A stretch of 64,000 bases of DNA, taken from the NCBI RefSeq assembly GCF_026210795.1, contig NC_089430.1, positions 5,456,001 through 5,520,000 of the forward strand, written 5' to 3'. The notes beneath the pieces were generated by a model. The model worked only from the letters and a program-made list of their open reading frames with translations. It was not told where the DNA came from and did not search any database. Made by a program: the position numbers and the translations under genes. Positions 1,067-53,566 of the stretch are shown here, piece by piece. The first letter of the stretch is position 1. Every line of letters begins with the position of its first letter. The DNA is from Rhizophagus irregularis. Taxonomy: Eukaryota.

Positions 1067-2222
1067 TATTTCTTATTTCTGGAAGGACTGAGGACGAATA
1101 TATATTGTAAACTGTGTATGTGATAAGCAAAGGAAACTGTTTGATTAATGATGACAGTTCTTTAAATCAAGATATTTCTTTAAGTGTTTTCCATTTTTTT
1201 ACGTAATACAGAAAGATATTCAATGTATGAGTTTAACAAGCAAATTATATTCATTGTACTTTTATCACGCTCTATATTTTAAACTTTTTAATCATTATTT
1301 ATTTAATCAAATAATTATGACATAAAATTCTACCTAACGTCATTCCTATCACTTTTATCATAAAAAAAAATGCCATTCAAATAAATAAATAAAGCAAAAA
1401 AAAAAACAATTCAATCCACCTTGTTTTAAGAAATCTAATGCTGAAAAGAATTTTTTTTAAAATTATAATGACCATTTTTCTTCTGTAAAAAAAAAATTGT
1501 CAACCGATCGGGTACTCATTCATACAAATATTTTTATTTTTTAAGATTTATACAGAAAAAAATAAATAAATAATTCATTTTTCGAAGAAACTACTTTATT
1601 CCATTCTATTTATGATAAGTTTACAAAGTAAAAAGAATTTTTTTTTTTGTTAATACTTTAAAAAGGCGTTAAATTATATTGAGTTGTGGGTCTTTTAAAT
1701 GTTTTTTTTTTTGTGTTTTGTTTTTATTAATTCATCTTTAGAAATTTTAACTAGAGACTCGAGTTAATAATAAGTTTTATACGGAATAGTTTTTTCTTTG
1801 TGTTTCTTTGTTATTATTAATGTAACTTTCTTATTTTTTTTTTAAGAACGTATCAACTTGTAAGTCAAACGAATAATTCGAGTCGACGTATTGACTTATG
1901 ATTCGTTACATATGTTGATCGAATCCCGACTCTTTGATTTTGTTGATGCATTAATATTTTGTCAATAGCAATAAAGACTTTATCAAACAATTGCCTTCTT
2001 TTAATAAAAAATGTTTACCTGAACCGGATAGATACCGACTGAATCGATCCGTTCAGAGCTTTATTTAAGTCGCATATTTTTACACGCGAATAAAATGCAA
2101 GAGTCGATCTGCAAATCGCTACGCTTTTTTAGTGCTAAATGATATACATCCTCTATATCCACAGTACAAAAAAAAATGATCGACGGAAATTTTTTCTTCC
2201 TCGAATTAATTTCATATTAATC

Positions 2223-3389
2223 ATGTTCATATTTAATTTAATTTATATCTTATTATTTATTCGAATTTCATTAACTGAATACGTTGATTATCAAAAAACA
2301 AGTATATTGGCGGCTTCAAATGATTCATTATTATGGGGAACCTATCGACCAAATTTATATTTTGGTACAAGACCACGTTTACCCGAATCATTATTAACAG
2401 GGTTAATATGGTTTGGAATCGAGAATGCGTCGAGTTTTAGTCGTATCCAATAAAATAATTAGGAATATTTCATTTTGATTTTTTTTTTGGTTTTTTTTTG
2501 ATTTTATTATTCCTTAAAACAGGTTGTTTTTTCCGTTAAGAAATTAGACATGCATGTGATCAGGGAGATGGATTAGATGAATATAGTTTTAAAAAACATG
2601 ATGGTCGTAATTTTGCTATACAAACATTATCTGATAGTAAAAATAATATTAAATTAAAAACTGAATTATTAAAAAATTCTGGAGGAGGTCACGGTATGAA
2701 TTATTAAAAAAAAGACCTTTTTTGTTTTTAAAATAATAAATTATTAACTTTATTTATAAATTTTAGGCGGAGATTGGGCAGTTCGTATATCTGGAACACC
2801 AATAAATAATAATAGTAAAGAAAAATTATTTTTTATTAAGGAAAGAAAGAATCTGTGAACGTGAAATTAATATTTTTTCGTGAATCTTAGAACCTTCTGG
2901 AATTTCATTTCTTTATTATTTTGGACTTGAAGGAGATGGTTCAATTGAATTGACTAATCCGTTGGATGAAATGGTGAATATTATTTATATTTATATTATA
3001 ATTATATACAGCATATATATTGTTAGTTTACATAAATTTTTTTTGTATAGGGTTTAGATACTCAAGTCGAACTTAAAGGAGAAACTCCAGATTTAGGACA
3101 ATTCTCAATTATATTAAAAGAAGGTAAAATTATTTTGTTAAATTTATTTCAATAATCTCTTACTTAATATCAAGATTTTAAATTTATAGATCCAAATAAT
3201 AGGATGCCATCAAATGTTCATTCAAAAGCATCAGAATTAGCCGATTTATCAAAAATTCATTATTGGGGACGTTTAGTTCCTGATGGAGATATTTGGCGAG
3301 CTAAAGGTAAATGAATAACAAGAAAAAAAAATATTTATTTTACAAATATCAAAAAATATTCATACGATTTTTTTTTTAAAAAAAAAAAG

Positions 3390-3441
<52 letters not shown>

Positions 3442-6099
3442 ATTACAGGGTCATTTGATTTCAAAATATCAGAATATAATAAAAAATCCGGAAACAAAAT
3501 CTATTCCTCCACCAAAATATTTATTTGCATTGAAAAATGAAGTCAAAGAAAATTCAAATTTTTTTATTTTTCAAAAGATGATTGAAGGACCTTTTCAAGT
3601 AAGATTTGTTATTTGAAAAAGTGTTTGATATAATAGTGTGTACGTGTTAACATGTGAAACTTTTTTATATTATTATTGTTATTATTTTAGTTTGATATAA
3701 TTTTTCAATCTAATTCATCACCTATTCATCTTGATTGTGAGTAAAGAATAATATATAGGAGAATTATTGTTATGTTTTCAACATATATACTTTTTCGAAT
3801 AACTTAAAACTTTTTTCATCATCTTCCATTATTGGTTTATTAGCCGAAAGTCTTACGTCTGGTCTTAAATCCAAATCTCAAGAATTTGATCAAAGATTTG
3901 AAAAAACATTTGGATTGAGGGAAAAAGGATTTAATGATAGTCAAATTTATTTCGCACAAACTATTATGAGCAATCTGATTGGAGGGATCGGGTATTCATT
4001 CATTTTATTGATATTTTTATTCATCGAGAATTACCGTTATTAATTGATCTTTTTTTTTTAATAGATATTTTTATGGGTCAAGCATTGTTGACAGATCATT
4101 TACAGATAGCGATGAAGATGAAGAAGAATTTTGGACAAAATATCGAGAAGCAGATCCAAGATTAACACCACCTTTAGCTTTATTTACAGCAACGCCATCT
4201 CGACCTTTTTTTCCACGTGGATTTTATTGGTAATTTCGTTTGTTATGTTTATATCCACAATGAAATCACTATTTATGAAGAAAAATTCCATTTTATATAT
4301 TATTAGGGATGAAGGATTTCATCAATTATTAATTGGTAAATGGGACAATGATTTAAGGTGAGGTTTGATGAGTTTTAATGATCTTTTTTTTTTATAAATT
4401 ATAGTTTAATATAATTTTTTCCTTTTGTTAGTTTGGATATTATTAAACATTGGGTTTCTTTAATTGATAATGATGGATGGGTTGCTAGGGAACAAATTTT
4501 AGGAGAGGAAGCTCGAAGCAAGGTTTGGAATTTTTTATCATTTATTACTTTTTATTTAATATAAAATATTTGAATTTTTTTTTATTTAGGTTCCAGAAGA
4601 GTTTCAAATACAGTATCCACATTATGCAAACCCTCCAACATTATTAATGGCAATAAAATCTTTTATGTTAAGAGTTGATAATTTAGAGAACAAAAATACT
4701 ATCAATATAGATGGTGAGTTTTTTTTCTTTAAAAATTTTTATAATTTATTATAAATTATTAGTTCAAAATTTTTAACTGAACAAAAAAATTTTTTTTTTT
4801 CTAATCTTTGAATTAGATATTGGAGAACAAATATTTAGTGATCATATTTTAAGTACGACAGATCCAACAATTATTTCGTCAAGATTTATGTTAGATAAAA
4901 AATTGGCAAATGATTTCTTGAAAGAAATTTATCCAAAATTAAAGTTAAATTATAAATGGTTTAGAAGAACTCAATGGGGTGAAGTTAAAGAATGGGGTAG
5001 AAGAGCAAGAAGCAGAGAAGCTTATAGATGGCGTGGTCGAACTCCTGGACATACCTTAACTTCTGGTATACAAATTTTTTTTTTTTATGCTAAAAATTAA
5101 AAAAAAAAACTATATAAATAAAAAAAATCTATTTATTTACCCGATAGGACTTGATGATTACCCTAGACCAACACCACCACATCCCGCTGAATTACATGTT
5201 GATCTTATGTGTTGGGTTGGATTTATGGCAAGATCACTTAAAGAAATTGCAGAAAGGTTAGAAGAGGAAGATGATGCTGATGATTACACGAAAGAATACA
5301 AAAATATTGTTGCTAATTTAAATGGTAAATTAAAACCACCTTTTTTAGTTATTAAATTGTTTGATAAATTTATTTATATATAAATATATTTATACTAGAT
5401 CTACATTGGAGCGAAGAACATGATGCTTTTTGCGATTTATCAGTTGATGAAGATGGTAAGATTTATATGAAGATATTTGTTAGTTTCAAGCGACTATCCT
5501 GCAACGTCGTTATTTATATTCTAATTATCTTCTTTTTTTCTTAGAGGACTCAATATTTGTTTGTCATAAGGGATATTTATCATTATTTCCAATGGTATTA
5601 GAATTACTACCTAATGATTCGCCAAAATTAGGAGCAATATTAGATATGATTTATAATCCGAGCGAATTATGGTCAAAGTAAGATAACATCTTATTATTAT
5701 AATAATCCTTAAATAATTCCTTATTATATATTTCTTATTCATATCATTCATATTTTATTAGATATGGGTTAAGATCATTATCAAAATCTGATAGATTTTT
5801 CCATACAGGAGAAGACTATTGGAGAGGAAATGTATGGATGAATATCAATTATTTAGTGTTATCTTCATTGTACAAAGTAAGAATGTTTAAAAATAACTTA
5901 ATTACATGAGTTTCAAAATTGTCCAATATTTTAAAACGTGATTTATTTTTTTTTATAGAACTACGCAGCTATTGAGGGTCCCTATAAAGAGAAAGCAAAA
6001 ACTATATATAAAGAGTTGAGAATTAATATAATTGAAAATGTTTATAAGGTAAAGTGATTTAAAATTTTAATATTGATTTCGGATTTAGCTTGATTTAAC

Positions 6100-6138
<39 letters not shown>

Positions 6139-6361
6139 TCAGGAATTTGAGAGAACCGGCTATGTATGGGAACAATATTCAGAAGATACAGGTGTAGGTT
6201 TAAGGAGGTAAGTTAAAGATTATTAAACGAATTGAAAAATAATGTTTTGATACGTAATAATATAATATTAATTTTTTCTTTTTTTTTTTTAATTACATAA
6301 TAGTCATCCATTTACAGGTTGGACGTCCTTAGTAACATTAATTATGGCGGAGGAGTATTAA
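2223..6361 (+). CDS. CWH41: Mannosyl-oligosaccharide glucosidase / ER glucosidase I (GH63), about 20 introns
   Basis: Exon peptides [111 protein letters not shown] and HPFTGWTSL, with GT-AG introns and TAA at 6359-6361. The start could instead be the in-frame ATG at 2139. Confidence 0.93.
3378..3439 (+). repeat. About 60-nt poly(A) tract inside a glucosidase intron
   Basis: Homopolymer run directly visible between donor (~3308) and acceptor (~3448). Confidence 0.9.
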
Positions 6362-9011: not shown

Positions 9012-12000
9012 TTATTCTATTCCATCTTTTTTTCTTTCACTCTCAGATTCGTTATTTTGACTTAAGAAAAAATTTTTTCCTTTACTCCCCGATTCGCTAT
9101 TTTGACCTAAGAAAAAAAAAGATTATATTAATTACGAATTGAAAAAAACGTGATTATTATGCAGAAAATAATATTTACTATCTTCATTATCATTCAATCG
9201 AGAAATATTGATTTGTGAAGATTCTATTTAATAAATTAAGACTTATTGTTAGTATTTATAAACTAAATATTCTTAAAATTATAAGTGGAATATTACCATT
9301 TTTGTTAATATTCAACTGAGAAATATTGATTTGACAAGATTCTATTTAATAAATTGATACTTTATTATTAGTATTTTATACATTAAATATTTTTAATGTT
9401 GTAAGTAGAATATTTACCATTCTCGTTAATATTCAATTGAGAAATATTGATTTGTAAAGATTCTATTTAATAAATTAAGACTTATCATTAATATTTATAA
9501 ACTGAATATTCTTAAAATTATAAGTGGAATATTTACCATTTTCGTTAATATTCAATTGAGAAATATTGATTTGCAAAGATTCTATTTAATAAATTGATAC
9601 TATTAGTATTTTATAAACTAGGTACTTATAAAGTCATTACATAAGTATGCTATTTACCACTAGTATTAATATTCATTTGAGAAAAGTTAAGTTGTAAAGA
9701 TTCTATTTAATAAATTAAAAGATTGTTATTAGTTGAATATTGACTAATATATTTAAAAAGTAACAATTAACAAAACATTTAATTAATACCTGAATATTCT
9801 TTGCTTATTATATTATCATTTTGTTCATAATAATCATCGGAATTTTTTGGTTCAGGAAGATTACTAAAATCAAGTAATCTACTTGTATAACTAGCTTCTG
9901 AATGTGTGTTATATATCCCTAAATTAGATGTAATGTTATTTAATGAATTGCTGTTTATTTCATCTGCTTCCTTAATTTGTGCTTGTAACTCTTCGTTTGA
10001 TCCATTATGCCATCTTCGTAAAATATTGTTTATTTCTTTTGTTATTGGCCGTTCTGATGGATTGGCATCTAAGCATCTTTTAATTAAATGTACAATTAAT
10101 TGTGGTACTTTAATGTTAAACCTCGGTCTAAATCCTTTACAAATTTTTATTGCTAGATTATTATCATGTTTTAAATCATGATATGGGGATAATCCAGAAA
10201 TTACTTCATACATTATTATACCAAAACTATAAATATCAGTAGCTTTGGTATAATTTTGTCCTCTTAAAATTTCAGGGGCTATATAAGGTAAAACACCATA
10301 TATGTTGTTTTTTGCATTCTCTAATTCATTATAATTTGCAGGTTTACATAATCCCATATCAGTTATAGCAGTTTTATATTTAAACTTTAATATATTCCCA
10401 ATATGCAAATCTCGATGAATTAATTCCTTTTCATGAATACATTCAAGTCCATTTACAATATGTCGTAAATAATCAAACTTTTTATTCCAATTAAGCTTAC
10501 TATATTCTTTATCTAAATAATTTCGTAAACTTCCATCTTCTGCATAATCTAAAATCATTATATAATTTTTCGTTTCTGGATCCTGTGTTATCCCATAAAA
10601 TCCAACAATCACAAAATTATCCATTCCTACTTTATTATGCAATATAAACTATGTGAATGCAATATTACAAAATATTTTAGTAACACTAATAATTTAAATT
10701 TTATTAACATAATAATAAATTAAATTAATCAGATAATACCTCATTAATAAATTCTGGTGTAATATTTTTTGAATTATTCAAACTTTTCAGAGCTACCAAT
10801 ATATCATTGCTATTTCTTTTCCATTTTTGATTTTTACTATCCCAATCAGTTATAAATCCATTAGTTAAATATGCTCTGTATACTTTTCCGAACCCACCTT
10901 TTGCAATATATTTAATATCATAAAATCTATTATAAGGTATCCATTCCAATGCTTCCTTTACATCTTTATGAGCTGATAATTGAGTATCTTGAATAAATTT
11001 ATCAATATCATCATTACCACTAGTCCAATTTTCAAAATTTCGTTGAAAGTATATTGAATTACAGTATATTTTATTACACTCTTTACATTTATTATTCAAA
11101 ACTATCATCATATAATTTTTTGTTTCTGGATCCTGAGTTATTCCATAAAATGTATGTTCAATTTTAATCTACAAATGTAATAATATGTTAGAAAAATAAA
11201 ATTTTAAAATTTTGTTGAGTAATAAGCTTATTAGTATACTACCTTATTTGCAAGTTCAAATGTAAGATCATTGGGAGTATTTAAACTTTTCAAATTCACA
11301 AACATATTAAGATTGTTTCTTCTCCAATTTTGATTTACATTATCCCAACTTTTATCATTTTCATCATAACTTATATATCCATCAATCCAATTTGCTCTAT
11401 ATACTTTACCAAAATCATCTTCTGCAATATATTTAATATCATGAAATCTATCATAAGGTATCCATTCTAATGCTTCTCTTGCAACTTTATGTACTGATAA
11501 CTGAGTATTTTGAATAAATTTATCAATATCATCATTGCCACTAGTCCAATTTTCAAAATTTTGTTGAAAGTAAATTGAATTACATATTTTATTACACTCT
11601 TTACATTTATTATTCAAAACCATCATATAATTTTTTGTTTCTGGATCCCAAGTTATTCCATAAAATTCATGTTCAATTTTAATCTACAAATGTAATAATT
11701 TATTAGAAATAAAGTATTTATAATTTTGTTAATAATTAACTGAAGCTTATACCTCATTTACAAATTCTAATGTAAGAATGTTTGAAGTATTTAAACTCTT
11801 CAAATTAACAAACATATTGCATCCTTCTCTTATCCAATTTTGATTTTCATTATCCCAACTTCCACTATTTTTACAATCACTTATATGTCCATCAATCCAA
11901 TTTGCTCTATATACTTCACAAAACTCATCTTTTGCAATATATTTAATATCATGAAATCTATCATGAGGCATCCATTCTAATGCATGTGATATTTCATTAT

Positions 12001-13709
12001 CATTATGAACTGATAGCTGGCTATCTTGAATAAATTTGTCAATATCATCATTACCACTAGTCCAATCTATGAATTTATATTGAAAGTGTATTGTGTTACA
12101 TATTTTGTTGCACATTTTACATTTATTACTCAAAACCATCATATAATTTTTTGTTTCTGGATCCTGAGTTATTCCATAAAATTCATGTTCAAATTTAATC
12201 TACAAATGTAATAATTTATTAGAAATAAAGTATTTATAATTTTGTTAATAATTAACTGAAGCTTATACCTCATTTACAAATTCTAATGTAAGAATGTTTG
12301 AAGTATTTAAACTCTTCAAATTAACAAACATATTGCATCCTTCTCTTATCCAATTTTGATTTTCATTATCCCAACTTCCACTATTTTTACAATAACTTAT
12401 ATGTCCATCAATCCAATTTGCTCTATATACTTCACAAAACTCATCTTTTGCAATATATTTAATATCATGAAATCTATCATAAGGCATCCATTCTAATGCA
12501 TGTGATATTTCATTATCATTATGAACTGATAGCTGGCTATCTTGAATAAATTTGTCAATGTCATCATTACCACTAGTCCAATCTATGAATTTATATTGAA
12601 AGTGTGTTGTGTTACATATTTTGTTGCACATTTTACATTTATTACTCAAAACCATCATATAATTTTTTGTTTCTGGATCCTGAGTTATTCCATAAAATTC
12701 ATGTTCAAATTTAATCTACAAATGTTATAATATATTAGAAATAAAATATTTATAATTTTGTTAATAATTAACTGAAGCTTATACCTCATTTACAAATTCT
12801 AATGTAAGAATGTTTGAAGTATTTAAACTCTTCAAATTAACAAACATATTGCATCCTTCTCTTATCCAATTTTGATTTTCATTATCCCAACTTCCACTAT
12901 TTTTACAATAACTTATATGTCCATCAATCCAATTTGCTCTATATACTTCACAAAACTCATCTTTTGCAATATGATATTTAATATCATGAAATCTATCATG
13001 AGGTATCCATTCTAATACTTCACTTACATCTTCATGAGCTGATAACTGAGTATTTTTAATAAATTTATCAATATCATTATTGCCACTAGTCCAATCTATG
13101 AATTTCCGTTGAAAGTGAATTGAATTACATATTTTATTGCACCTTTCACATATATTATTCAAAACCATCATATAATTTTTTGTTTCTGGATCCTGAGTTA
13201 TTCCATAAAATATACGTTCAAATTTAATCTACAAATGTAATGATATATTAGAAATAAAATATTTATAATTTTGTTATGTAATTAACTGAAGCTTATACCT
13301 TATTTACAAATTCTAATGTAAAAATGTTTGGAGTATTTAAACTCTTCAAATTCACAAACATATTGTATTCATTTCTTATCCAATTTTGATTTTCATTATC
13401 CCAACTTTTATCATTTTCATCATAACTTATATATTCATCAATCCAATTTGCTCTATATACTTTACCAAACTCATCATCTTTTGTAATATTATACAATTTA
13501 TCATAAGGTATCCATTCTAATACTTCTAATACTTTACTTACATCTTCATGAACTGATAACTGAGTATTTTGAATAATTTTATCAATATTATCATTACCAC
13601 TAGTCCAATTTTTAAAATTATGTTGAAATTGTATTGAATAACAGATGCAATTACATTTTTTACATATCTCGCTAGCATCTGATAGCTTAATTAGCCCAAA
13701 AGAATCCAT
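9012..13709 (-). CDS. Kinase A: tyrosine-kinase-like protein kinase with 6 N-lobe modules (5 degenerate, 1 intact) and a C-terminal micro-exon tail
   Basis: ATG 13709. Modules at ~516-bp period are joined by phase-0 introns. The last module has AKGGFGKVY and VALK; the catalytic exon has HRDLHIGN, TDMGL, YIAPE and DIYSFG. Five 45-nt exons follow, then terminal exon 9106-9012 ending in TAA. Confidence 0.88.
9179..9702 (-). repeat. Tandem array of five 45-nt micro-exons plus introns (~119-bp period)
   Basis: Exons 9702-9658, 9581-9537, 9462-9418, 9341-9297 and 9223-9179, each bounded by ttaaatAG and GTaa, encoding ESLQINISQLNINEN-like 15-mers. Confidence 0.9.
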
Positions 13710-16700: not shown

Positions 16701-16856
16701 AATAAATGATCGACGATTAAACCTTCCCATATATACAATAGCCTCAAGTCAGGCTGAAATTATATATTTTCCCTAAATCAATATAAAATTTTTTATTTAT
16801 TCTTTCTATTTTTTTTAACTTTCTTCAGATTAATTTAAATTTTAATTAAAAACCAA

Positions 16857-19800
16857 ATGTACTGTATAAAGAAATTAATCAAGTCATCAAACACTGACGA
16901 AGAATTGAATGATATATGTGAAAATTGTAAACGTGTATGTTATGGAATAAATTTTCAAAGAAATTTTAAAAATTGGACTAGTGGCAATAATTATATTGAT
17001 ATTTTTATTCAAGTTACTCAATTATCCGTTCATTATCAATGTGAAATATCAAATGCATTAGAATGGATACCTTATGATAAATTTTATAATATTAAATATA
17101 TTTTAGAAGATACTTTTGGTAAAGAATATAAAGCAAATTGGATTGATGGATATATTTATAAATGGAATAATTATTTTAAAAATTGGAAAAGACGTAATAA
17201 AAATATGTTTGTAATTTTAAAAAGTTTAAATGATCCAAAATATATTACATTAAATTTTATGAATGAGGTATAATTTTATATGAAAAATAATTTTTTTTTT
17301 TTTTACAAAATTTTAATCTTTACAATACTTTTAGATTGAAAAGAAACATGAAACTTATGGAATAACTCAAAATCCGAAAACGAAAAATTATATGATTGTA
17401 TTAGATGATAAATGCAAGTGTAATATCATATGTAATGCGAAAATTTTTCAACAAAACTTCAAAAATTGGACTAGTGGTAACAAAGATATCGACAAATTCA
17501 TTCAAGGTACACAATTATTGGCTCATAATAATGTAGAAAACACATTAGAATGGATACCATATGATAGATTCTATGATATCAATTATATTGCAGAAGATAA
17601 TATCTACAAAGCAAATTGGATTGATGGATGTATAGATGAATGGGATATTGAAAATCATAATTGGAAAAGATATAATCAAAATATGTTTGTAAATTTAAAA
17701 AGTTTAGATAATTCTAAAAATATTACATCAGAATTAATAAATAAGGTATAGTTCATTTTTGAATGAAAGTTTAAATATTTTTGTAAATTCACTATAATTT
17801 TAAAAAGCATTATTTAAATATTTTTACTAATATATTATATTTATAGGCCAATCAGACCAATCATAGGCTTTATGGAATAACTCAGGATCCAGAATCAAAA
17901 AATTATATGATGGTCTTAAATGATGAATGTAAAAAATGTTATCATGCATGTAATGCAACTATTTTTCAAAATAATTTTAAAAATTGGACCAGTGGTAATA
18001 ATGATATTGATAAACTTATTCAAGATACTCAGCTATCAGCTCATAAAAATGCAGGAAATGCATTAGAATGGATACCTTATGATAAATTTCACAATATCAA
18101 ACATATTGCAAAAGATGAATTTGGCGAAATATATGAGGCAAATTGGATTGATGGACTTATAGATAAATGGGATGATGAAAATCAAAATTGGAAAAGATAT
18201 AATCAAAATATGTTTGTAAATTTGAAGGGTTTAAATACCCCAGAAAATCTTACATTAGAATTTATAAATAAGGTATGATAAGCTTATTAACAAGATTATA
18301 AGTATTTTTTTTTTCTAACATATTATTATTACATTTGTAGATTAAAAGAGACCATGAATTGTATGGAATGACTCAGGATCCCAAAAAAAATTATATGATC
18401 GTTTTAAATAATAAATGTGCGAAATGTAATTATATATGTAATTCAATATATTTTCAAAGAAATTTTAAAAGTTGGACTAGTGGTAATAATGATATTGATA
18501 AGCTTATTCAAGATGCACAACTATCAACTCATGAAAATGCAGGAAATGCACTAGAATGGATACCTTATGATAGATTTTATAATATAAAATATATTTTAGA
18601 AGATAGTTTTGGTAAAGAATATAAAGCAAATTGGATTGATGGATATGTTTATAAATGGAATAATAATTTTAGAAATTGGAGAAGACGTAATAAAAATATG
18701 TTTGTAACTTTAAAAAGTTTAAATAATCCAAAAAATGTTAAATCAGTAATTATGAACGAGGTATTGTTTTAACGAAATTTTAAATTTTGATTCTTCCTAT
18801 TTTTACTATACTAATATATTATATTTATATTTAATAGATTCATAGTAGTTATGGAATAACTCAAGATCCACAGACAAAAAATTATATGATGGTTTTGAGT
18901 GATAAATGTAAAAAATGTAATAAAATATGTAATACAATATACTTTCAACGAAATTTTAAAAGTTGGACTAGTGGTAATAATGATATTGATAAGATTATTC
19001 AAGATGCACAATTATCAGCTCATAAAAATGCAAGAAATGTATTAGAATGGATACCTTATGATAAATTCTATAATATTAAATATATTGCAAAAGGTGGATT
19101 TGGCAAAGTATATAAAGCGAATTGGATTGATGGACGTATATGGGATTGGAATGATAAAAATCAAAATTGGGAAAGATATGGTAAAAATATGGTTGTGGCG
19201 TTGAAAAGTTTAAATAATTCGAAAAATGTTACATTTGAATTCATGAATGAGGTATAATTTATTTTTATTTGATCAATTATTAATGAAAATTCTAAAATTT
19301 TAATCGTATTAATTTTTATATTTAGATAACATCTCATCATAAAGTAAGTAATGATATTATTATTGGATTTTATGGAATAACTCAAGATCCGGAAACAAAA
19401 GATTATATGATGGTTTTAGAATATGCAATAAATGGAAGTTTACGAAATTATTTAGACACAAATTATAATAAATTAAGTTGGGAAAGAAAAATTAGAGATT
19501 TATGTGATGTTGCAAAGGGACTTGAATCCATCCATAATAATAACTTAATTCATCGAGATTTACATATTGGTAATATACTAATGGGTAATGATACAGTTTA
19601 TATAACTGATATGGGATTATGTAAACCTGCGGATTATAATGAATCAGAAAATGCAAAAAACAACACGTATGGTGTATTACCATATATAGCTCCTGAAATT
19701 TTAAGAGGAGAAAATTATACCGAAGCTTCAGATATTTATAGTTTTGGTATAATTATGTATGAAGTGATTTCTGGATTACCTCCATATCATGATCTCAACC

Positions 19801-22251: not shown

Positions 22252-24523
22252 TTATTCGAGTCTGTATTTTTTGGATTTTTTAAAAAAATTAGGAACTCTA
22301 TTTGATGCAAAGTACAATTGCCGATTTTCATGCTCTAACATTTCCAAAATTGCTGATTTTCGCGAATTTCTATTCCCTCCATCTTTCAATGTGTTTTGAA
22401 AATAAAGGCATATCTGCATATGATTTTTTTTTTCAACTGGAGAACATGAAAATGCTGCCAATCCAAACTTATGATGAATTTCAAGAAACTCCGCAACATG
22501 ATTGCATAACACATGAATATATGGTGTTATATCCTGAATACGATACATGCCTCTAACAAAATTACCTCTATTTGGATGTCCTGTAGAAGGAGCTGTAAAT
22601 TCATCTAACCAAGATTTGGCCTTATAACGAAAAAATTCACCAGTTGTTTTTTTATCTTGTATTAGATGATATAGTTCATTAAATTGATCCCATAAGGCAC
22701 GGATTTGTATGGCTTGTGTTATTGATTGAAATACAGCAAAAAGGTCAAATTCTTTTAGAACTTTTAATTTGTCTGGACCCATTAATGAAGTATAAGACAG
22801 ATTATTTGTATTTTTTTCATGCCAAAATTGAAACGAAATATTAAGTCTTTGCATTTCTGATAAAATTTTTCCTTTCCAAATTTCTTCATTTGCAGTCTCA
22901 CGGCGGAGATCAGAAATCATTAGTTCCCACAGTCTATCTGTTAATCGCAAAAAAATATGCAACTCGTCAACCACCCAATTTTGTAATGGTATCATATGAA
23001 ATAAAGGTTCTTTGATATGGCCATTTATTTGTTTATAATTGACTTTAATATTATCCATTGATTTGTTGATTTTTTTTGAAGTAGTATTAATGCTATTTTT
23101 ATTACAATCACACCATGGACAGAAATACTGTGCATTAGCAGCATTCATTCCTAAACAAATTGCTAAAAATTTCCAATCGGAACTGAAATATAGTTCTACG
23201 GGCCATTGGTTGCCACCTATTTGATTAAAACCTTTCTCTTTTAATATACATAAATCAGAAATTAAAGGAGTTAATACATTCTTAAGAGACTCATATGTTT
23301 CAGCTCCTGGATATAAAACCAAAGTATAGTGGTTATCTGGTTTTTGTAATCCATTTAAATCATTCAATAATGTCATTGTGACCATTACATGTTTCACTTT
23401 GCGTCCAACATTACGCCCATCTCCTGAAATTCGAATATGTAATGTTGATTGTCTAGGAATTAAAATTCCTTTTTCAATATATAATGGTATTATATAGTTT
23501 AAAATATCTGTTATACGACGTTGACCTCCTTTTCCAATTGATTCTAACATATTTGTAATAATTTCACTATCAGTAATATTTGGTTCTTCTCTAATTGGTT
23601 CAAATTTAGTCAGTTGCAATAAATCAACAAGAGTTAGTGGGACCTGTTTCTTCATTTCTGCATTAATTTTTTGCCATATATCACATACTGCCTTTTCACA
23701 TGGAAGATCTTCAATTCGTGCTAGAGATCGATAAGCTTCTCTTGATATATGACCTTTATCCAAAGATTTAACTACTGCTTCAATTTTTTTTATTTCCTCT
23801 ATTTTATTCACCTTTCCAAAATTAATATCATATACATCATCATCTATCTCAAATTTTATTTGTTTAAGTTTTATTTGATCATCTGGATGAAATGTATTGT
23901 CTCTTTCTCTTTCAACAATATCTAAAATACTCTGTGATAATCCAAGTATTCTGCGACGTTTTTGAGAATTACCAAGATCAATAAATGGCCGAATTTTAAG
24001 ATCTAGAGACATTGTTCTACGCACTCGTTCAACACTAAGTAACTTGAGACCAAAAAGTAAAGGACCAGATATTTTTCCTTTATTTTCTTTGTTTGACTGG
24101 TCCCTATTTCGATTTTTCTCCATTTCTTTCATTCCATTAAACTCCTAATAGAATAATTAGTTAATATTTATTTCAACAATAAAAAATATTTTTAAAAAAT
24201 AAATGTACCTGATAATACTTGCAGGCAGCATCTGTAGATGTCTCCCAGGAATGTACTTCTCTTGAAAAATTAACTCCAAAGCAAATTTTGTATAAAGGTT
24301 TTTTTTCCACATATTCAATTGAACATTCAACTGTATAAATTGCTTTTCCATATTGGGTCTTGACAACATAATTATGAGGAATTGGATGTTTCGGATTCCT
24401 GGTATAATGAAGTTGTTCTGTAAGAGGATATGTTCCCTCTTTTATTATCTCGTAAAAATAGGTTCTTTTATTATCAAAAAGTTTTATAAATGAACTTTTA
24501 GGATAAGTGCCTTCTTCTTTCAT
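22252..24523 (-). CDS. About 735-aa DDE transposase with a RAG1/Transib-like core and an FYR-like N-terminus (2 exons)
   Basis: Exons 24523-24209 and 24144-22252 join in frame (YYQ|EFNGMKE). Motifs ISGDG, SSDWKFL, FCPWCD, DELH, TPYIHVLCNHV and AFSCSPVEKKN are collinear with RAG1 catalytic and Zn-binding motifs. Confidence 0.82.
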
Positions 24524-28400: not shown

Positions 28401-28643
28401 AATGATCGCCAAAAGTGACACTATTACACTGCATTTCTTTTGTTATCCGGATTTAGTCTTGTTTTACACAACACAAATCACCTGATTATTGCATTATATA
28501 TAATTCGCTCTATGCAGAGATAAAATTTTTCTTTCTGTTTTTCCTGCAAAATATATTTCCCACAATCCTTACTCCACCTTTTTTTATTAGTATTTATTAT
28601 TAATTACTTATTTTACTTTTAATCAATTCTTATTGAATTGCAA

Positions 28644-31600
28644 ATGAGTCAAATTATAAGGAAATTATTATTGTCATTTCGTAATGATAAGTGTGAAAGT
28701 TGCGGAAATGATCATTGTTATGTAAAACATTTTCAGAAAAATTTTAAAAATTGGACCAGTGGCAATGATAATATTGATAAATCTATTCAAGATACTCAGC
28801 TATCAGCTCATAATGATGTGAAGAAAGCATTAGAATGGATACCTTATGATAAATTTCACAATATTAAATATATTGCAAAAGATGAATTTGGCGAAATATA
28901 TATAGCAAATTGGATTGATGGAAAAATACGTTATTGGGATGTTGCAAATCAAAATTGGAGAAGAAATAATCATAATATGTTTGTAAATTTGAAGAGTTTA
29001 AATATACCAAACATTCTTATATTATTAGAATCTGTAAGTGAGGTATTATAAGCTTGTTAACAAGATTATAATTAATTTTTTTCTAACATATTATTATTAT
29101 ATTTGTAGATTAAAAGAGATGAATTTTATGGAATAACTCAGAATCCAGAAACAAAAAATTACATGATAGTTTTTAATAATATATGTAAAAAATGCCATGA
29201 AAATTGTTATTCAATATATTTTCAACAAAATTTCAATTATTGGACTAGTGATAATAATGATATTGATAAATTTATTCAAGATACTCAGCTATCAGCTCAT
29301 AATGATGTGAAGAAAGCATTAGAATGGATACCTTATGATAAATTTCACAATATTAAACATATTGCAAAAGATGAATTTGGCGAAATATATATAGCAAATT
29401 GTATTGATGGAAATATACGTTATTGGGATGTTGCAAATAAAAATTTGAGAAGAAATAATCATAATATGTTTGTAAATTTGAAGAGTTTAAATATTCCAAA
29501 CATTCTTATATTATTAGAATCTGTAAGTGAGGTATGATAAGCTTGTTAACAAGATTATAATTAATTTTTTTCTAACATATTATTATTATATTTGTAGATT
29601 AAAAGAGATGAATTTTATGGAATAACTCAGAATCCAGAAACAAAAAATTACATGATAGTTTTTAATAATATATGTAAAAAATGCCATGAAAATTGTTATT
29701 CAATATATTTTCTACAAAATTTCAATTATTGGACTAGTGATAATAATGATATTGATAAATTTATTCAAGATACTCAGTTATCAACTCATTATAATGTGAA
29801 GAAAGCATTAGAATGGATACCTTATGATAAATTTCATAATATTAAATATATTGCAAAAGATGAATTTGGCGAAATATATATAGCAAATTGGATTGATGGA
29901 AATATACGTTATTGGGATGTTGCAAATCAAAATTGGATAAGAAATAATCATATGTTTGTAAATTTGAAAAGTTTAAATACTCCAAACATTCCTATATTAG
30001 AATCTGTAAATGAGGTATGATAAGCTTGTTGACAAGATTATAATTATTTTTTTTTTAACATATTATTATTATATTTGTAGATTAAAAGAGATGAATTTTA
30101 TGGAATAACTCAGAATCCAGAAACAAAAAATTACATGATGGTTTTGATTAATATATGTGAAGAGTGTGATAAAATATGTAATTCAATACATTTTCAACGA
30201 AATTTTAAAAGTTGGACTAGTGACAATGATGATATTGATAAATTTATTCAGGATACTCAGCTATCAGCTCATAATGATGTGAAGAAAGCATTAGAATGGA
30301 TACCTTATGATAAATTTCACAATATCAAATATATTGCAAAAGATGAATTTGGAGAAATATATAAGGCAAATTGGATTGATGGAAATATAAGTTATTGGAA
30401 TAATAAAAATGAAAATTGGATAAGAAGTCATCATGATATGTTTGTAAATTTGAAAAGTTTAAATATTCCAGAAAATTTTACATCAGAATTTATAAATAAG
30501 GTATGACAAGCTTATTAACAAGATTATAAGTATTTTTTTTCTAACATATTATTACATTTGTAGATTAAAGGATATGAAATTTATGGAATAACTCAGGATC
30601 CAAAAAAACAAAATTATGTGATGGTTTTGGGTGATATATGTAAAAAATGTAATGAAAAATGTAATTCAATATATTTTCAACGAAATTTCAATTATTGGAC
30701 TAGTGATAATGATGATATTGATAAATTTATTCAAGACACTCAGCTATCAGCTCATAATAATGTGAATAAAGCATTAGAATGGATACCTTATGATAAATTT
30801 TGCAATATCAAACATATTGCAAAAGGTGAATTTAACAAAATATACATAGCAAATTGGATTGATGGAAATATAAGTTATTGGAGTTATTGGGATGATGCAA
30901 ATCAAAATTTGGAAAGAACTAATCATAATATGTTTGTAAATTTGAAGAGTTTAAATACTCCAGAAAATCTTACATTAGAATTTATAAATAAGGTATGACA
31001 AGCTTATTAACAAGATTATAAGTATTTTTTATTCTAACATATTATTACATTGGTAGATTAAAAGAGAGCGTGAATTTTATGGAATAACTCAGAATCCAGA
31101 AACAAAAAATTACATGATGGTTTTAAATAATATATGTGAAAAGTGTAATTCAATATGCAATACAATATACTTTCAACGAAATTTTAAAAGTTGGACTAGT
31201 GGTAATAATGATATTGATAAGATTATTCAAGATGCACAACTATCAGCTCATGAAAATGCAGGAAATGTATTAGAATGGATACCTTATGATAAATTTTATA
31301 ATATTAAATATATTGCAAAAGGTGGATTTGGCAAAGTGTATAAAGCGAATTGGATTGATGGACGTATATGGGATTGGAATGATAAAAATCAAAATTGGGA
31401 AAGATATGGTAAAAATATGGTTGTGGCGTTGAAAAGTTTAAATAATTCGAAAAATGTTACATTTGAATTCATGAATGAGGTATAATTTATTTTTATTTGA
31501 TCGTTTAATGAAATTCTAAAATTTTAATCGTATTAATAGTTATTTCTGTATTTAGATAACATCTCATCACAAAGTAAGTAATGATATTATCATTGGATTT

Positions 31601-32525
31601 TATGGAATAACTCAAGATCCGGAAACAAAAAATTATATGATGGTTTTGGAATATGCAACAAATGGAAATTTACGAAATTATTTAGACACAAATTATAATA
31701 AATTAAGTTGGGAAAGAAAAATTAGAGATTTATGTGATGTTGCAAAGGGACTTGAATCCATTCATAATAATAATCTAATTCATCGAGATTTACATATTGG
31801 TAATATACTAATGGGTAATGATACAGTTTATATAACTGATATGGGATTATGTAAACCTGCGGATTATAATGCATCAGTAAATGCAAAAAACAACGCGTAT
31901 GGTGTATTACCATATATAGCTCCTGAAATTTTAAGAGGAGAAAATTATACCGAAGCTTCAGATATTTATAGTTCTGGAATAATTATGTATGAAGTAATTT
32001 CTGGGTTACCTCCATATCACGATATCAGCCATGATCAATATTTAGCAATAAAAATTTGTCAAGGACTTAGACCAAGATTTAATATTAAAGTACCCCAATT
32101 TATTATTGATTTAGTTAAAAATTGCTTAGATGCAAACCCATTAAATCGACCAACAGCAAAAGAAATTTATGAAATTTTTAACCCATGGAGTTTAACAGCA
32201 GAATTACGAGAACAAATTAGTAAAGCGGACGAAATAAACAACAATTCATCAAATAATAAAATACTTTCAACTAATTTAGGATTATCATATAAAACACATT
32301 CGGAAGCTTTTTATGCGAGTAGATTGCTTAATTTTGATAATCTTCCTGAACCAAAAAATTCCGACGATTATTATGAACATAATGATAATATAATAAGCAA
32401 GGAATTTTCAGGTATTATTTAATAATTTTGTTAATTAAAATGCAAGTTTTAAAGATACTACTAATAAACTTTTCATTTATTAAATAGAATCTTTACAAAT
32501 TGATATTGCTCAATTGAATATTTAG
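28644..32525 (+). CDS. Kinase C: TKL-type kinase with 6 N-lobe modules
   Basis: ATG 28644; modules at ~490-bp period. The last module and catalytic exon (~31556-32411) are nearly identical to kinase B, with DIYSSG instead of DIYSFG. Tail exon from 32488 (ESLQIDIAQLNI) ends at TAG 32523-32525. Confidence 0.87.
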
Positions 32526-34150
32526 TTGTAAATTTTTAATTAATATAGTTAATGATTAATATTTCTTATTATTCATGTTCAATTTGTTGTTTTATTTTTT
32601 TTTTTTAGCTTTAAAATATCGAATTCAATAAGCACAGAAAAAGTTTTGAACAAAACTCTTTTAGTTTCTAGTTACCAATATTATAAGTATTATTGTATTT
32701 ATTATGATTAGTATACATTGATATTACTATTTTTTTTTTTATATAAATCATTAAATCATTACAATTTAAAACTCTGTTTAACGTTGGTTTTTTTAACTTC
32801 ATCATTAAAACATTTTGAAATATTTTTTTTTTACTTTTCTTTACTAATTGAAGAGCAAAAAAAAAAATTTTTTTTTATTATTAGTGCTAAATAGGGTTTT
32901 AAATTTTAAGGACAGTTATTTAAATTGTATATTCATTTGTATTATTTTATTGGTTAAATAAATTATTAAAATTCTAAGCAAATACGAGACGTGAAAAGAT
33001 TTTAAAAAAGTGAAGTAATTAATGCACAATTTGAACTTTTTAAATTATTTTACAGCAGATTTTGTACATGAATAGGCAAGGTTTTCAGATCTTATATGAA
33101 TTTATTTTATTAATCTTTATCATCAAACAATATAAAAAAGCATAAACCGCTTATCTTCCCATTTTAACAATAAACACTGACCAAAAGTGTGAATTCTTTT
33201 TTAATAATGAAGAGTCGAAAGTAAAGATATCGCTGAGAATTTATTCTTGCGCCATATAAAAACAACTTTACTAATTATTTCAATTAAAAACGTTAATTGA
33301 ACTTAATTTTAAGCGATCTAATAGAATAACTAAAAGATATCAACAACTTTATAATTTATACATATAAAATATTGTTTAACTCTAGAAATTTGAATTAGTA
33401 CCTTTAACCAATATAAAACTTCACATATGACATTTATGTATTTATAAAAGCAAAATGTTACAATCCTTCTCAAAAAACTAATCTAAATTAAATACTTGCT
33501 ATAAGATCATTGTTTCATAATTTAGAAAAAGCTATTAATAATATTAATATAAAAGTACAGACTTTCAAAAACTGTAATCTTCAATAAATGATTAAGTATT
33601 AATTATTTACTATGCTAGTAATAAATAAATGGGTTATCATCTAAAGGATAACAACCATTTGTTTATGGATAACATAGTAAATACTAACTCCTGGACACGG
33701 ACATCTAGGCATCTAATTGATCAATGATCACCATATTATCAGCTTGACGAAACTTTTTTTTGTTTCTTCTTTCCTTTAGTTTTTACAATTTCCTTAAAAA
33801 TGGCAAGCAAGAACGTCTTTTAAAGAAAAATTCATGTTACCTCTTATAGATTTAAATAGAAATACACTCAATATTTCATCTCAAAATGCGACTCTTTATT
33901 TGGAGGAATTGTAATACAACTATAAATTTTAGTTAATAAAAACTTAACACAAATTTAAGATGTATTATAATAATAACATCAATAAAAAATTGATAAATTA
34001 TATTCAATTAGACCATATATAACTATTACAAACTATAACTTAGTTATTATACTGAATACCTAATTTATAAAATGGCAAAAAAAATTCTAGATAATCATTA
34101 GTGAGCAGGGGATAAATTTTCTATGTATTTAATGCATGACCACTTTTATG

Positions 34151-38793: not shown

Positions 38794-40112
38794 CACATGC
38801 CGATCAAAAATATCCGGCCACTTTTCAAAATGAAATAAATTTATAAATTTAATATGACAAAAATAAAAATTTAAATAAAATATATTTATTTATGACTCAA
38901 TTTATTAAATTATAAAAAAAATTAATAATATTTAATAATTAATTCTATTGCCATTTGCGGCAATAACTGCTTCAATTCTTTGGGGCATACTATCGATTAA
39001 TTTCTTATAATATTCCGGCGGAATATCCTCCCATGCATCCTTAACATATTTTTCAAGGACTTTAATACTAGATGGTGGTGGAGTACGACGACGTACCATT
39101 ACTTTCATCTCCGACCAAAGATTCTCAATCGGATTTAGGTCAGGGCTTTGTGACGGCCAATTGAGAACCACAATTCCAGCATTTTCACGGGCGGTCATTG
39201 CAATTTTTGAACGGTGTGGTGGGGCATTATCCTCTTGGAAAATTCCGTTACCTTGTGGGAAAAAGTCATGCAAAGTAGGTATGACATAATCATTAATAAT
39301 TTTGGCATGGGTTTGTCCAGTAACTGAACCATTTATCGGAACAATTGGTCCAAGCCCATTCCAGGAAAAACACCCCCAAAACATTTTATTGGGACTATGT
39401 TTTACAGTAACTGCAACACAGTCAGGGTTTAATTCTTCCCCAGGTTCACGCCATACCCTTCCCTGACGGCCTTGTTGAAATTGTGTAAAAGTACTTTCGT
39501 CTGAAAAAAGTACTCTCCTCCACCGTCTTGTTCCCCAGTTTTCATGTGCATGGGCCCATTCGAGGCGAGCTTGACAGTGTGCCTCTGTCATTGCAGGTGT
39601 TTTACGTGGCATACAAGCAGTAAGCCCAACTTTCTTTAGGTTACGACGTATGGTAACAGCAGAAATAGGCTGTTTTGTATGAGCTGTCCAAACTGTTGCA
39701 AGCTTTTTTGTACAAAGCCGACGGTTTTCACCATTTTCTTGAACAAAACTCTTAAGTTCCTGCTGAGCTGTTGAATTTAAAAGTGGAGGACGGCCTGGTT
39801 GTTTTTTTGGTGTTAAGGAATGAGTTTCACGAAGGCGCTTAAGTATATCGTTAACAGTTGTTTTCCCACATCCCAACTGCTTAGCAATTGTGCGACTTGA
39901 TTGTCCACAATTATGACCATAAACAATAGCACCACGTGTTTTTGGGGTAAGTGGCTTCATATTTTTAGAAAGTTCTAGAAAACATAAGGTTTGGGGATAT
40001 GTTTATTATGATTATAAATACAAAATAACGTGTTGATTACGTCATATTAATATGTCATGATCTACATAATTTTGCCAAATCAAAGTGGCCGGATATTTTT
40101 GATCGGCATGTG
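38794..40112 (-). mobile_element. Full-length Tc1-family transposon (1.3 kb)
   Basis: Perfect ~31-bp TIRs CACATGCCGATCAAAAATATCCGGCCACTTT; TA on both flanks. Confidence 0.95.
38932..39960 (-). CDS. Tc1 transposase, DD34E, intact 342 aa
   Basis: N-terminal HTH, GRPP linker, LFSDES, FQEDNAPPH and SPDLNPIENLW; 34 residues between the second D and the E. Confidence 0.95.
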   Translation of the reverse strand: MKPLTPKTRGAIVYGHNCGQSSRTIAKQLGCGKTTVNDILKRLRETHSLTPKKQPGRPPLLNSTAQQELKSFVQENGENRRLCTKKLATVWTAHTKQPISAVTIRRNLKKVGLTACMPRKTPAMTEAHCQARLEWAHAHENWGTRRWRRVLFSDESTFTQFQQGRQGRVWREPGEELNPDCVAVTVKHSPNKMFWGCFSWNGLGPIVPINGSVTGQTHAKIINDYVIPTLHDFFPQGNGIFQEDNAPPHRSKIAMTARENAGIVVLNWPSQSPDLNPIENLWSEMKVMVRRRTPPPSSIKVLEKYVKDAWEDIPPEYYKKLIDSMPQRIEAVIAANGNRINY

Positions 40113-44000: not shown

Positions 44001-44200
44001 CATATGTTCAGTTCTTAGAAACTATATACCTTTTATTTATAAATACTATGGAAAAAGGCAAACGACTTATTGAAAACTTAATATCTTCGGTTCCATATGT
44101 TCAGTTCTTAGAAACTATATACCTTTTATTTATAAATACTATGGAAAAAGGCAAACGACTTATTGAAAACTTAATATCTTCGGTACAAAATTGTAAATAA
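41082..44200 (+). pseudogene. GIN1-like copy 1 (TM-AIG1 GTPase-coiled coil-Hint), rearranged; Hint module inactivated
   Basis: The spliced 5' part is intact (LLIGKTGSGKST, SAVT, DTPG). A ~610-bp internal duplication (~42268-42881 / ~42882-43477) shifts the frame, giving a stop at 42935. The downstream Hint lacks LCSCYDQCPPS and there is a further ~90-bp tandem duplication at the C-terminus. Confidence 0.8.
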
Positions 44201-51890: not shown

Positions 51891-53566
51891 ATGGAAAATC
51901 TTCGTTCATCTAGAACTAGAATATCAGACACCAATATAGGTATTATTATTGTTATTATTAAATATTACATTATTATTACGGTATTTTTCTTTTTTCTTTT
52001 TTCTTTTTTTTTTAATATATTTCTCAATATTATTTCAATAAATTGACTAGAATTAAGAAATAGTCAACGTCGACGTTCTATACCTCAATCTACTTCAAAT
52101 AACCGATTTTCTAGACGAAATGGCCAAAATAACATTTTTACTTATGTAACATCCCTAATTGCAATTTTTGTGTTTTATAATCTTGTAATTAATGTATTTA
52201 AATTTACTACAAATTTATTTTACGGATCCGACATTTCAGGTATATCGCATAATACTATAATTTTAATTACTCTTGCATATTTATTTATATGTATTGTGTT
52301 ATTAGGTAACTTCTACTTCTGAACTTTTAATTAAGCCCCGCCTCTCTTTAGTTAATCGATTATTTCTATGATCTGAATAATTATGACAGATAATATGTAA
52401 GGAACATAAAATCCGTTTTCAAATTTCATATTTTTTTAATACTTATCGATTTTCACACTTTAGACCTAAATTGAAATCGCATTTATCGGATATCGATTCA
52501 CCAGTCATACTCTTAATTGGGAAAACAGGTATACCTTGATATTGCGTTTTTATTTTGGTCGTTTATATTATTTCCATTGAAGACATGTAATTCATCCTTT
52601 TGTAAAGGTGCTGGTAAAAGCACTCTGGGAAACTCATTGTTAAAAACCTCCGAAAATGAAAACCCGACTTTTCTTGTTTCTGATAGCTTTGTAAGTATAA
52701 AAAATAAATGTACTCTATTTAAATAATTTCATTTATACCAGTTTTTCTAACTTTTAAAAAATGATTAGTCATCCGTTACTAAAAAATCAGGTTTTGCGAA
52801 TATACAAATCGGTAACGAAATTTATAACATTGTCGACACGCCAGGGATTTTTGACACTGATGATCCCAACGATGTTGTCCTAGAAGAAATTGCTCGAACT
52901 ATCCAAAAATGTTCTTATGGGATTAAGGCCATATTATTCGTAATTGGTAAGTGAGGATAATAATGATAACATTCACAATAGAGAGGTATATGTTTAAAAA
53001 GTTATTTATAGAAGCAAAACGGTTCACAGAAGAGCAAAAGGAAATAATCAACAGAGTAAAATTATTTTTCGGTGAAGAGGCCCTCCAATACATGATTTCT
53101 GTCTTTTCGCATTGTAACCGTAAGCAGACAAACGATCCTGAATATTTTAAAAATGTTTCTTGGAATCGGGAAATGAAGGCTTTAGTCAATTCCATGGGTA
53201 ATCGGTGGGCTATTTCTCCGAGCCCAGATATTTTCACGCTTAATAATCTTGTACATAACCAACGCCTCGAAGAATTACAAAATCACATTGTCTCTATAGA
53301 TGGAGTGTATACAAATGAATTACTCGAGAAAGCTCGGAAAAGACAAGATGAAAATGCAAGAATTGCGAGAGAAGCAGAAGAGAAACGACAAAAAGAATAC
53401 GATGAAAATAAAAGGAGAGAAGGTGAAGCCATTGCAAGGAAGAATTATGAGAAGCAGAAAGAAATAGATGAGAGAAAAACAAATGAAAGACGAAAAAAGG
53501 AAATCGAGGATATAATGGAATTTCTACTTAAACAAATAAATAGCCTAAAAAAGACAGTGGATAATA
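51891..53566 (+). CDS. GIN1-like copy 2: TM-AIG1 GTPase-coiled coil, cut off just before the Hint domain by unrelated sequence
   Basis: ATG 51891; LLIGKTGAGKST, SSVT, DTPG. Homology to copy 3 stops at KKTVDN; the frame reads on into T-rich foreign DNA to a stop at 53658. Linker exons at 52240-52460 are unresolved and it may be a pseudogene. Confidence 0.7.

What the first reader, a model, noticed from the sequence alone, without database searches (positions are those of the whole stretch)
9179..9702. CRISPR-looking repeat is an array of 45-nt micro-exons encoding an N/Q-rich, possibly amyloid-like 15-mer
Five exact 45-nt phase-1 exons encode ESLQLNFSQMNINTS, ESLQINISQLNINEN (x2), ESCQINISQLNINKN and ESSQINISRLNDNED. 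The conserved part is the exon and the variable spacer is the intron. The alternating hydrophobic/N-Q pattern suggests stacked beta-strands. Speculation: a polymerisation motif at the end of a TKL kinase, analogous to the RHIM of RIPK1/3 or fungal amyloid signalling motifs.
Basis: partly seen in the sequence, partly recalled or inferred. Interest (0 to 1): 0.7.

Follow-up and report, generated by a model that had tools for sequence, protein, structure and literature searches.

The report
Repeated tail exons of fungal kinase
In a mycorrhizal fungus, five tiny spliced exons repeat a short end-of-protein motif that related kinases carry in one to six copies, likely a docking site multiplied to grip a partner harder rather than an amyloid switch.

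Summary
Observation confirmed. Five 45-nt, phase-1, AG/GT-bounded exons end an intact 1265-codon TKL-type kinase gene of Rhizophagus irregularis. All six introns are skipped in transcript-like contigs of two studies, and a public gene model already holds the five units (P0026).

The amyloid/RHIM reading is weak. The unit is a copy of the family's C-terminal motif S-L-Q-I-[D/N]-I-S-Q-L. Of 69 motif-bearing relatives, 39 have one copy, 22 have copies 30-140 residues apart and 8 have 15-residue arrays. Single copies have Asp, not Asn, at the centre (37 of 39). Several genes stop right after the 7-residue core. Distant Glomeromycotina kinases end in an acidic version, [ST]-x-x-hydrophobic-[DEN]-hydrophobic: 32 of 101 in a fresh set against 9.9 in shuffles. 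There is no RHIM tetrad or Pfam amyloid motif, no NLR in the window, and the motif was found only in kinases.

Best reading: a short linear docking (possibly phospho-) motif multiplied by exon duplication and swapped between paralogues; partner unknown. An Asn-ladder beta-solenoid in the tight arrays is not excluded (about 12%); no amyloid predictor or multimer fold was available.

The parts
9658..9702 (-). motif exon 1 (45 nt, phase 1-1)
   Evidence: joints 9702/9790 and 9581/9658
9537..9581 (-). motif exon 2
9418..9462 (-). motif exon 3; absent from X11 contigs (skipped, or an allele/paralogue with fewer units)
9297..9341 (-). motif exon 4
9179..9223 (-). motif exon 5 (most diverged)
9012..9106 (-). 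last coding exon (acidic then basic end, two 45-nt internal repeats) and TAA stop
   Evidence: (joint 9104/9177)
9790..10648 (-). kinase C-lobe exon with HRD, DMG and APE motifs, then the conserved tail strand and linker; ends in phase 1
   Evidence: Pfam PK_Tyr_Ser-Thr E 6e-38; joints
10740..11168 (-). sixth N-lobe exon, the only one with an intact Gly-rich loop; pairs with the C-lobe
   Evidence: joint 10648/10740 in X1, X2, X6
11243..13709 (-). five further phase-0 exons (13709-13299, 13228-12785, 12715-12269, 12199-11753, 11683-11243), each a Cys-motif plus kinase N-lobe unit with a degenerate Gly loop
63401..63800 (-). second array: four 45-nt motif units at the end of a paralogous kinase
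   Evidence: P0071
20266..20310 (+). single motif exon of a paralogue; stop codon right after the 7-residue core
32488..32532 (+). single motif exon of a paralogue; stop four residues after the core

Best explanation
The five repeats are spliced 45-nt exons, each a copy of the short motif that ends many kinases of this expanded fungal family, and together they likely form a multivalent docking tail that binds a partner protein more tightly than one copy would. Shown: the exons are spliced in; the motif sits on its own exon behind a phase-1 intron; relatives carry 1-6 copies at different spacings; a [ST]-x-x-hydrophobic-[DEN]-hydrophobic core recurs at the C-terminus of distant Glomeromycotina kinases. 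Inferred: a symmetrical phase-1 exon can be duplicated with its intron by unequal crossing-over without breaking the frame, and whole tails were swapped between paralogues. Predicted and untested: the tail is disordered, each core binds a folded partner as an added beta-strand, the leading Ser/Thr may be a phosphorylation switch, and copy number tunes avidity. The partner is unknown.
For: Splicing. Column conservation over 123 motif instances: S 0.90, L 0.81, Q 0.93, I 0.85, D/N 0.93, I 0.73, S 0.89, Q 0.86, L 0.90, falling off after position 13; 0 hits in 5 shuffles of the set. Copy number among 109 relatives: 0 in 43, 1 in 31, 2 in 24, 3-6 in 11. Of 109 distinct subfamily tails, 71 have the motif and 21 of the other 38 are gene models that read into the intron. 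Spacing is free (15, 21, 30-40, up to 136 residues), as expected of independent sites rather than a register-dependent fold. Five relatives and one window gene end within 7 residues of the motif's Ser. Generalised core: 35 of 80 distant tails against 8.7 shuffled (pattern chosen by eye from that set). With the pattern fixed, a fresh set gave 32 of 101 against 9.9+-3.0, and 15 of 50 after redundancy filtering against 4.9+-2.0; S/T at position -3 in 33 of 76 against a background of 0.15. AlphaFold2: kinase pLDDT about 90, single motif 54-64, six-copy array 30-40. Nine window exons: no indels, pN 0.17 against pS 0.35. Array-bearing kinase domains are not one clade (AU p 4.8e-7), yet 11 of 13 share a related last segment.
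Against: No partner was identified and no binding or phosphorylation data exist. Low pLDDT fits an amyloid motif just as well. In 15-residue arrays the central Asp is mostly Asn (25 of 32 against 2 of 39 in single copies), which changes a conserved position of the supposed docking core and would suit stacking. Constraint on the copies is only moderate (ratio about 0.5, few sites, no test; units A5 and B2 carry non-conservative changes). 69 of 101 tails in the fresh set lack the generalised pattern; by eye many are gene calls ending in the intron, but I did not count them. That set includes a few subfamily members and related sequences are not independent.
Confidence: 0.55

Rival explanations
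1. The tight 15-residue arrays fold into a beta-solenoid or cross-beta polymer with Asn/Gln ladders and cluster the kinase, as the RHIM does for RIPK1/3, possibly as a gain in one tail type.
For: Alternating hydrophobic/polar pattern in two stretches per unit, no Pro, N+Q 36%. Asp-to-Asn at the centre in arrays (25 of 32). Arrays are kept in R. irregularis, R. diaphanus and R. clarus. Known amyloid motifs occur singly or in 2-3 copies at effector C-termini (PMC9815663, passages). The top structure row of the Atlas was a beta-helix cluster, but at TM 0.30 on a model with pLDDT 0.49, under the tool's bar.
Against: No RHIM tetrad, no Gly; RHIMs are 18-22 residues with a (V/I)-Q-(V/I/L/C)-G core (bioRxiv 10.64898/2026.02.19.706818 and PMC7375649, passages). 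No amyloid-motif Pfam hit. Single and widely spaced copies dominate and are acidic. The Asn form probably arose once and travelled with a shared tail, so it is not repeated evidence. No second protein family with the motif and no NLR nearby. The fold search ranks RIPK1/2/4 no higher than BTK, BRAF, EGFR or FGFR.
Confidence: 0.15
2. One copy is functional and the extra exons are a tolerated by-product of unequal crossing-over in a repeat-prone, birth-and-death gene family.
For: The same gene has six duplicated N-lobe exons. Copy number varies 1-6 among close paralogues with no relation to N-lobe number (rho 0.06). Period-240 structure. Degenerate units A5 and B2. Possible copy-number difference in X11.
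Against: All five are spliced in with exact 45-nt length while the introns collect indels; pN is below pS. Arrays persist across three species.
Confidence: 0.2
3. The motif binds the kinase itself (its own or a neighbour's N-lobe or substrate groove) as an autoinhibitory or oligomerising strand; many N-lobes and many motifs would give a multivalent network.
For: The tail strand upstream of the motif is modelled on the kinase with pLDDT about 90. The gene has six N-lobe units and five motifs. A Ser/Thr leads the core.
Against: No correlation between N-lobe and motif numbers (rho 0.06, p 0.53, n 109). AlphaFold2 with 84-92 sequences did not dock the motif confidently although two N-lobes were present.
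Confidence: 0.1

Closest known systems
RHIM of RIPK1/RIPK3
   Same: Short aliphatic/Gln motif C-terminal to a TK/TKL-fold kinase; hydrophobic-Q-hydrophobic core.
   Different: No Gly tetrad; core of 7-9 rather than 18-22 residues; Asp in most relatives; up to six copies; no second protein family sharing it was found. RHIM features come from passages of PMC7375649 and bioRxiv 10.64898/2026.02.19.706818.
Fungal NLR amyloid signalling motifs (HET-s/HRAM, PP, sigma, PUASM)
   Same: C-terminal, single or repeated, N/Q-containing with alternating hydrophobics.
   Different: Those pair an NLR N-terminus with an effector C-terminus, often in adjacent genes (PMC9815663, passages). Here the carrier is a kinase, no NLR lies in the window and no Pfam model matches.
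Repeated docking motifs in kinase or receptor tails (IRAK1 TRAF6-binding motifs, LRP6 PPPSP repeats; recalled, no call)
   Same: Several copies of a short motif in a predicted-disordered tail behind a signalling domain.
   Different: No sequence likeness; here each copy is its own exon, and the partner is unknown.
Beta-strand-addition motifs: SUMO-interacting motif, Atg8-interacting motif, pLxIS (consensus recalled, no call)
   Same: Hydrophobic-acidic-hydrophobic core with nearby Ser/Thr and acidic flanks; some distant tails look SIM-like.
   Different: The subfamily consensus fits none of them exactly; leads only, not tested.
Expanded PF07714 kinase families of Rhizophagus irregularis
   Same: This gene is a member; PMC6123716 (passages) reports PF07714 as the commonest motif in expanded genes; the five exons are in the public model P0026.
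   Different: My searches found no description of the tail motif, its exon arrays or the tandem N-lobe exons.

Membership tests
RHIM | (V/I)-Q-(V/I/L/C)-G core tetrad | tested here: not met
   0 tetrads in the spliced protein; 1 of 371 fetched proteins has one in its last 150 residues
RHIM | match to the RHIM profile | tested here: not met
   no hit at E<=10 for 7 proteins; HMMER filters drop weak matches
RHIM | forms amyloid that drives kinase activation | not testable with these tools
   needs a fibril or cell assay
Fungal amyloid signalling motif | same motif at an NLR N-terminus and an effector C-terminus | tested here: inconclusive
   10 of 10 hits among 6751 candidates of 378-1204 aa are kinases; a single copy in another protein would score too low; no whole genome was held
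Fungal amyloid signalling motif | NLR gene adjacent or within about 20 kb | tested here: not met
   no NACHT or NB-ARC hit in 78 distinct stop-free stretches of the window (8, 73, minus overlap in kind only; of 104 listed the kinase N-lobe repeats and antisense frames were left out); only about 9 kb of window lies downstream of the gene; short exons could be missed
Fungal amyloid signalling motif | beta-arch prediction (ArchCandy) or prion foci | not testable with these tools
CRISPR array | unrelated spacers, no splicing | tested here: not met
   spacers are homologous introns and are spliced out
Tandem duplicated symmetrical exons | homologous exons of length 3n with the same phase on both sides, included in mRNA | tested here: met
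Tandem duplicated symmetrical exons | mutually exclusive use | tested here: not met
   consecutive joints in X1 and X5; one possible skip in X11
TK/TKL-fold protein kinase (PF07714) | profile match with beta3 Lys, HRD, D-x-G and APE | tested here: met
   TKL versus TK subgroup not resolved by a tree
Short linear docking motif | short conserved core in a predicted-disordered tail, free spacing and copy number | tested here: met
Short linear docking motif | binds a defined folded domain | not testable with these tools
   partner unknown

The most novel reading that the evidence does not exclude
An ancestral acidic docking motif was turned, by exon multiplication and an Asp-to-Asn change, into a self-stacking beta-solenoid that polymerises these kinases: an independently evolved, exon-tunable counterpart of the RIPK necrosome in arbuscular mycorrhizal fungi, spread between paralogues by tail swapping.
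Probability: 0.12. Interest if true: 0.8.

Novelty: new member of a known kind. Interest (0 to 1): 0.38.

Why it matters
The expanded kinases of arbuscular mycorrhizal fungi have no described wiring that my searches could find. A short motif shared by their C-termini, across Rhizophagus, Glomus, Diversispora, Gigaspora and Acaulospora records, gives a concrete bait to find their common downstream partner. The gene is built from two kinds of duplicated exon, N-lobe units in front and motif units behind, which suggests modular diversification. A practical point: many gene models miss the motif exon and read into the intron (21 of 109 tails). If the arrays were amyloid, this would be the first kinase-borne amyloid signalling I could find in this lineage, but the evidence favours the plainer reading.

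Tried and rejected
CRISPR: rejected (homologous spacers, spliced). One motif per N-lobe: no correlation. A special link to RIP kinases: the fold search does not separate RIPK from BTK, BRAF, EGFR or FGFR. Independent origins of the Asn form: not claimed, because arrays share a last segment although their kinase domains are not one clade (the 30 rows were picked after seeing the tree). PDB sequence search with the repeats: one chance-level hit, E 0.23. ESM Atlas by features: three unnamed Mucoromycota clusters of 90-151 aa at 0.87-0.88, lead only, perhaps kinase fragments; the Atlas search for the N-lobe unit did not complete. Multimer folding of four copies of the repeats: tool not available, nothing was folded. 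No whole genome was held, so no genome-wide motif scan. No run was on record as RNA; RNA status is inferred from intron-skipping joints. The scan's earlier findings: nothing by sequence or place. Nine paper searches found no description of this motif or array; most subscription papers are outside the library; PMC4857004 was not held; no supplements were read, and the motif tables of PMC9815663 could bear on the amyloid question.

Full report
Setting. The window is eukaryotic, about 25% GC; no whole genome was held. Protein searches place it in Rhizophagus irregularis: P0026 is 99% identical over the aligned part of the kinase exon query and its last 130 residues equal the spliced window frame.

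Observation. They follow a kinase exon (10648-9790; Pfam PK_Tyr_Ser-Thr E 6e-38) that ends in phase 1, and precede a last exon from 9106. The 13-exon frame is open for 1265 codons with beta3 Lys, HRD, DMG and APE motifs. Upstream are six phase-0 exons of 411-447 nt, each a Cys motif plus an N-lobe; only the sixth has an intact Gly loop. A two-unit relative folds as two N-lobes and one C-lobe.

Splicing. Seven of 24 listed runs were laid. X1 (P1) and X5 (P2) show 6 of 6 joints with CT..AC ends; X7 shows 1; X11 shows 3 plus a joint from 9341 to 9537 and no cover of unit 3. X2 and X6 each show 2 in a table that was cut. X3 runs through the introns. The runs are only guessed to be RNA and are contigs; no contig spans all five units. 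The X11 joint may be exon skipping, an allele or a paralogue, since one of its two contigs has several other letters and units 2 and 3 are 96% alike.

The introns are copies too. Across the nine array units of the window (five here, four at 63800-63401) intron cores differ at 23% of aligned sites with many gaps, while exons have no indels; pooled pS is 0.35 and pN 0.17; by distinct changes the ratio is 0.53. Pairs are not independent and sites are few, so this is moderate constraint, untested statistically. Tandem periods of 121 and 240 point to duplication of one- and two-exon blocks.

The family. Among 109 relatives longer than 506 aa the motif occurs 123 times, never before the catalytic loop, and 0 times in five shuffles; copies number 0 (43 proteins), 1 (31), 2 (24) and 3-6 (11), at spacings from 15 to 136. 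Of 109 distinct subfamily tails in the full set, 71 have the motif, 21 are models that read into the phase-1 intron, and 17 are other. Of 69 proteins typed, 39 are single, 22 widely spaced and 8 tight arrays; the central residue is Asp in 37 of 39 single, 40 of 50 widely spaced and 4 of 32 array units, Asn in 25 of 32 array units; N+Q is 27%, 25% and 35%. Five relatives and the window gene at 20266 end within seven residues of the motif's Ser. Motif number does not track N-lobe number (rho 0.06). Array-bearing kinase domains are not one clade (AU p 4.8e-7 on 30 rows chosen), but 11 of 13 array proteins share a related last segment; I infer tail exchange between paralogues, so the Asn form counts as about one event.

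Deeper conservation. Distant kinases end in [ST]-x-x-hydrophobic-[DEN]-hydrophobic, mostly followed by acidic residues or the C-terminus: 35 of 80 tails against 8.7 shuffled (pattern chosen by eye from this set). With the pattern fixed, a fresh search (records of Rhizophagus, Glomus, Funneliformis, Gigaspora, Diversispora, Geosiphon, Ambispora and metagenomes) gave 32 of 101 tails (119 proteins, 18 dropped for no anchor or a tail under 15 residues) against 9.9+-3.0, and 15 of 50 after redundancy filtering against 4.9+-2.0; S/T is enriched strongly only at position -3 (33 of 76; weakly at -1, 19 of 78). Two thirds of tails lack the pattern; many look like intron read-through, uncounted. So the shared, probably ancestral element is short and acidic, not N/Q-rich.

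Structure. AlphaFold2 models the kinase and the first tail strand confidently; the single motif has pLDDT 54-64 and a six-copy array 30-40. This fits a disordered tail and does not separate docking from amyloid. The fold search returns BTK, RIPK1/2/4, BRAF, EGFR and FGFR at similar E-values.

Amyloid tests. RHIMs are 18-22 residues with a (V/I)-Q-(V/I/L/C)-G core (passages of PMC7375649, and bioRxiv 10.64898/2026.02.19.706818; the latter also says Gly substitutions often raise nucleation, so lack of Gly argues against RHIM membership, not against amyloid as such). The protein has no such tetrad and no amyloid-motif Pfam hit. Fungal signalling motifs pair NLR N-termini with effector C-termini, often in adjacent genes, and may be single or repeated (passages of PMC9815663; PMC10197012). 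A search with a six-copy array returned 10 proteins, all kinases (blind to single copies and to proteins outside 378-1204 aa). All 11 motif hits in the six frames of the window are at kinase ends, and no NLR domain was found in the stop-free stretches scanned. For amyloid: the two-strand alternating pattern, 36% N+Q, no Pro, the Asp-to-Asn shift and retention in three species.

Mechanism. Most likely (0.55) each unit is a short linear motif that adds a beta-strand to a folded partner, perhaps gated by phosphorylation of the leading Ser/Thr, and exon duplication raises avidity. Splicing, conservation and copy variation are shown; duplication mode and tail exchange are inferred; binding, phosphorylation and avidity are untested. 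Rivals: tolerated expansion (0.2), amyloid or beta-solenoid (0.15), binding to the kinase itself (0.1). Likenesses to SIM, AIM, pLxIS, IRAK1 and LRP6 motifs are recalled, not tested.

Novelty. The kinase expansion is known (passages of PMC6123716) and the five exons are already in a public gene model. Nine searches (listings only, apart from the five papers read in passages) found no account of the tail motif, its exon arrays or the N-lobe repeats. It is a new example of a known kind: a short motif multiplied by symmetrical exon duplication. Interest 0.38.

Noticed in passing
window 10740-13709 (-), 16839-19254 (+), 28623-31482 (+): Three kinase genes each carry 5-6 tandem exons that encode a Cys motif plus a whole kinase N-lobe in front of one C-lobe; in the gene studied only the last has an intact Gly loop. 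Relatives have up to 10 units. No Pfam hit for the unit alone; no paper found.
   Followed up: partly
window 41997-44197, 52951-53655, 57852-59247 (+): Several AIG1-family GTPase genes, most followed in frame by a Hint (hedgehog/intein) module; an unusual fusion worth its own look.
   Followed up: no
window 9015-9106 (-): The last exon holds its own two 45-nt internal repeats and ends in a basic patch; in most array-bearing relatives it looks like a nuclear localisation signal (recalled pattern), partly degenerate here.
   Followed up: no
P0103, P0109: A Mycoplasmataceae endobacterium record and a similar unnamed protein carry this kinase with the tail strand and a motif-like end, behind leucine-rich repeats.
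   Followed up: no
window 38935-40002 (-): Intact-looking Tc1/mariner transposase (DDE_3, HTH_Tnp_Tc3_2).
   Followed up: no
window 2139-6361 (+): Glycosyl hydrolase family 63 (glucosidase I-like) gene, downstream neighbour of the kinase.
   Followed up: no
window 22255-24144 (-): 630-codon stop-free stretch with no Pfam hit, possibly transposon-derived.
   Followed up: no
public models P0004, P0009, P0015 and others: 21 of 109 subfamily gene models miss the motif exon and read into the phase-1 intron; P0026 and P0111 include the units but drop parts of the kinase.
   Followed up: partly
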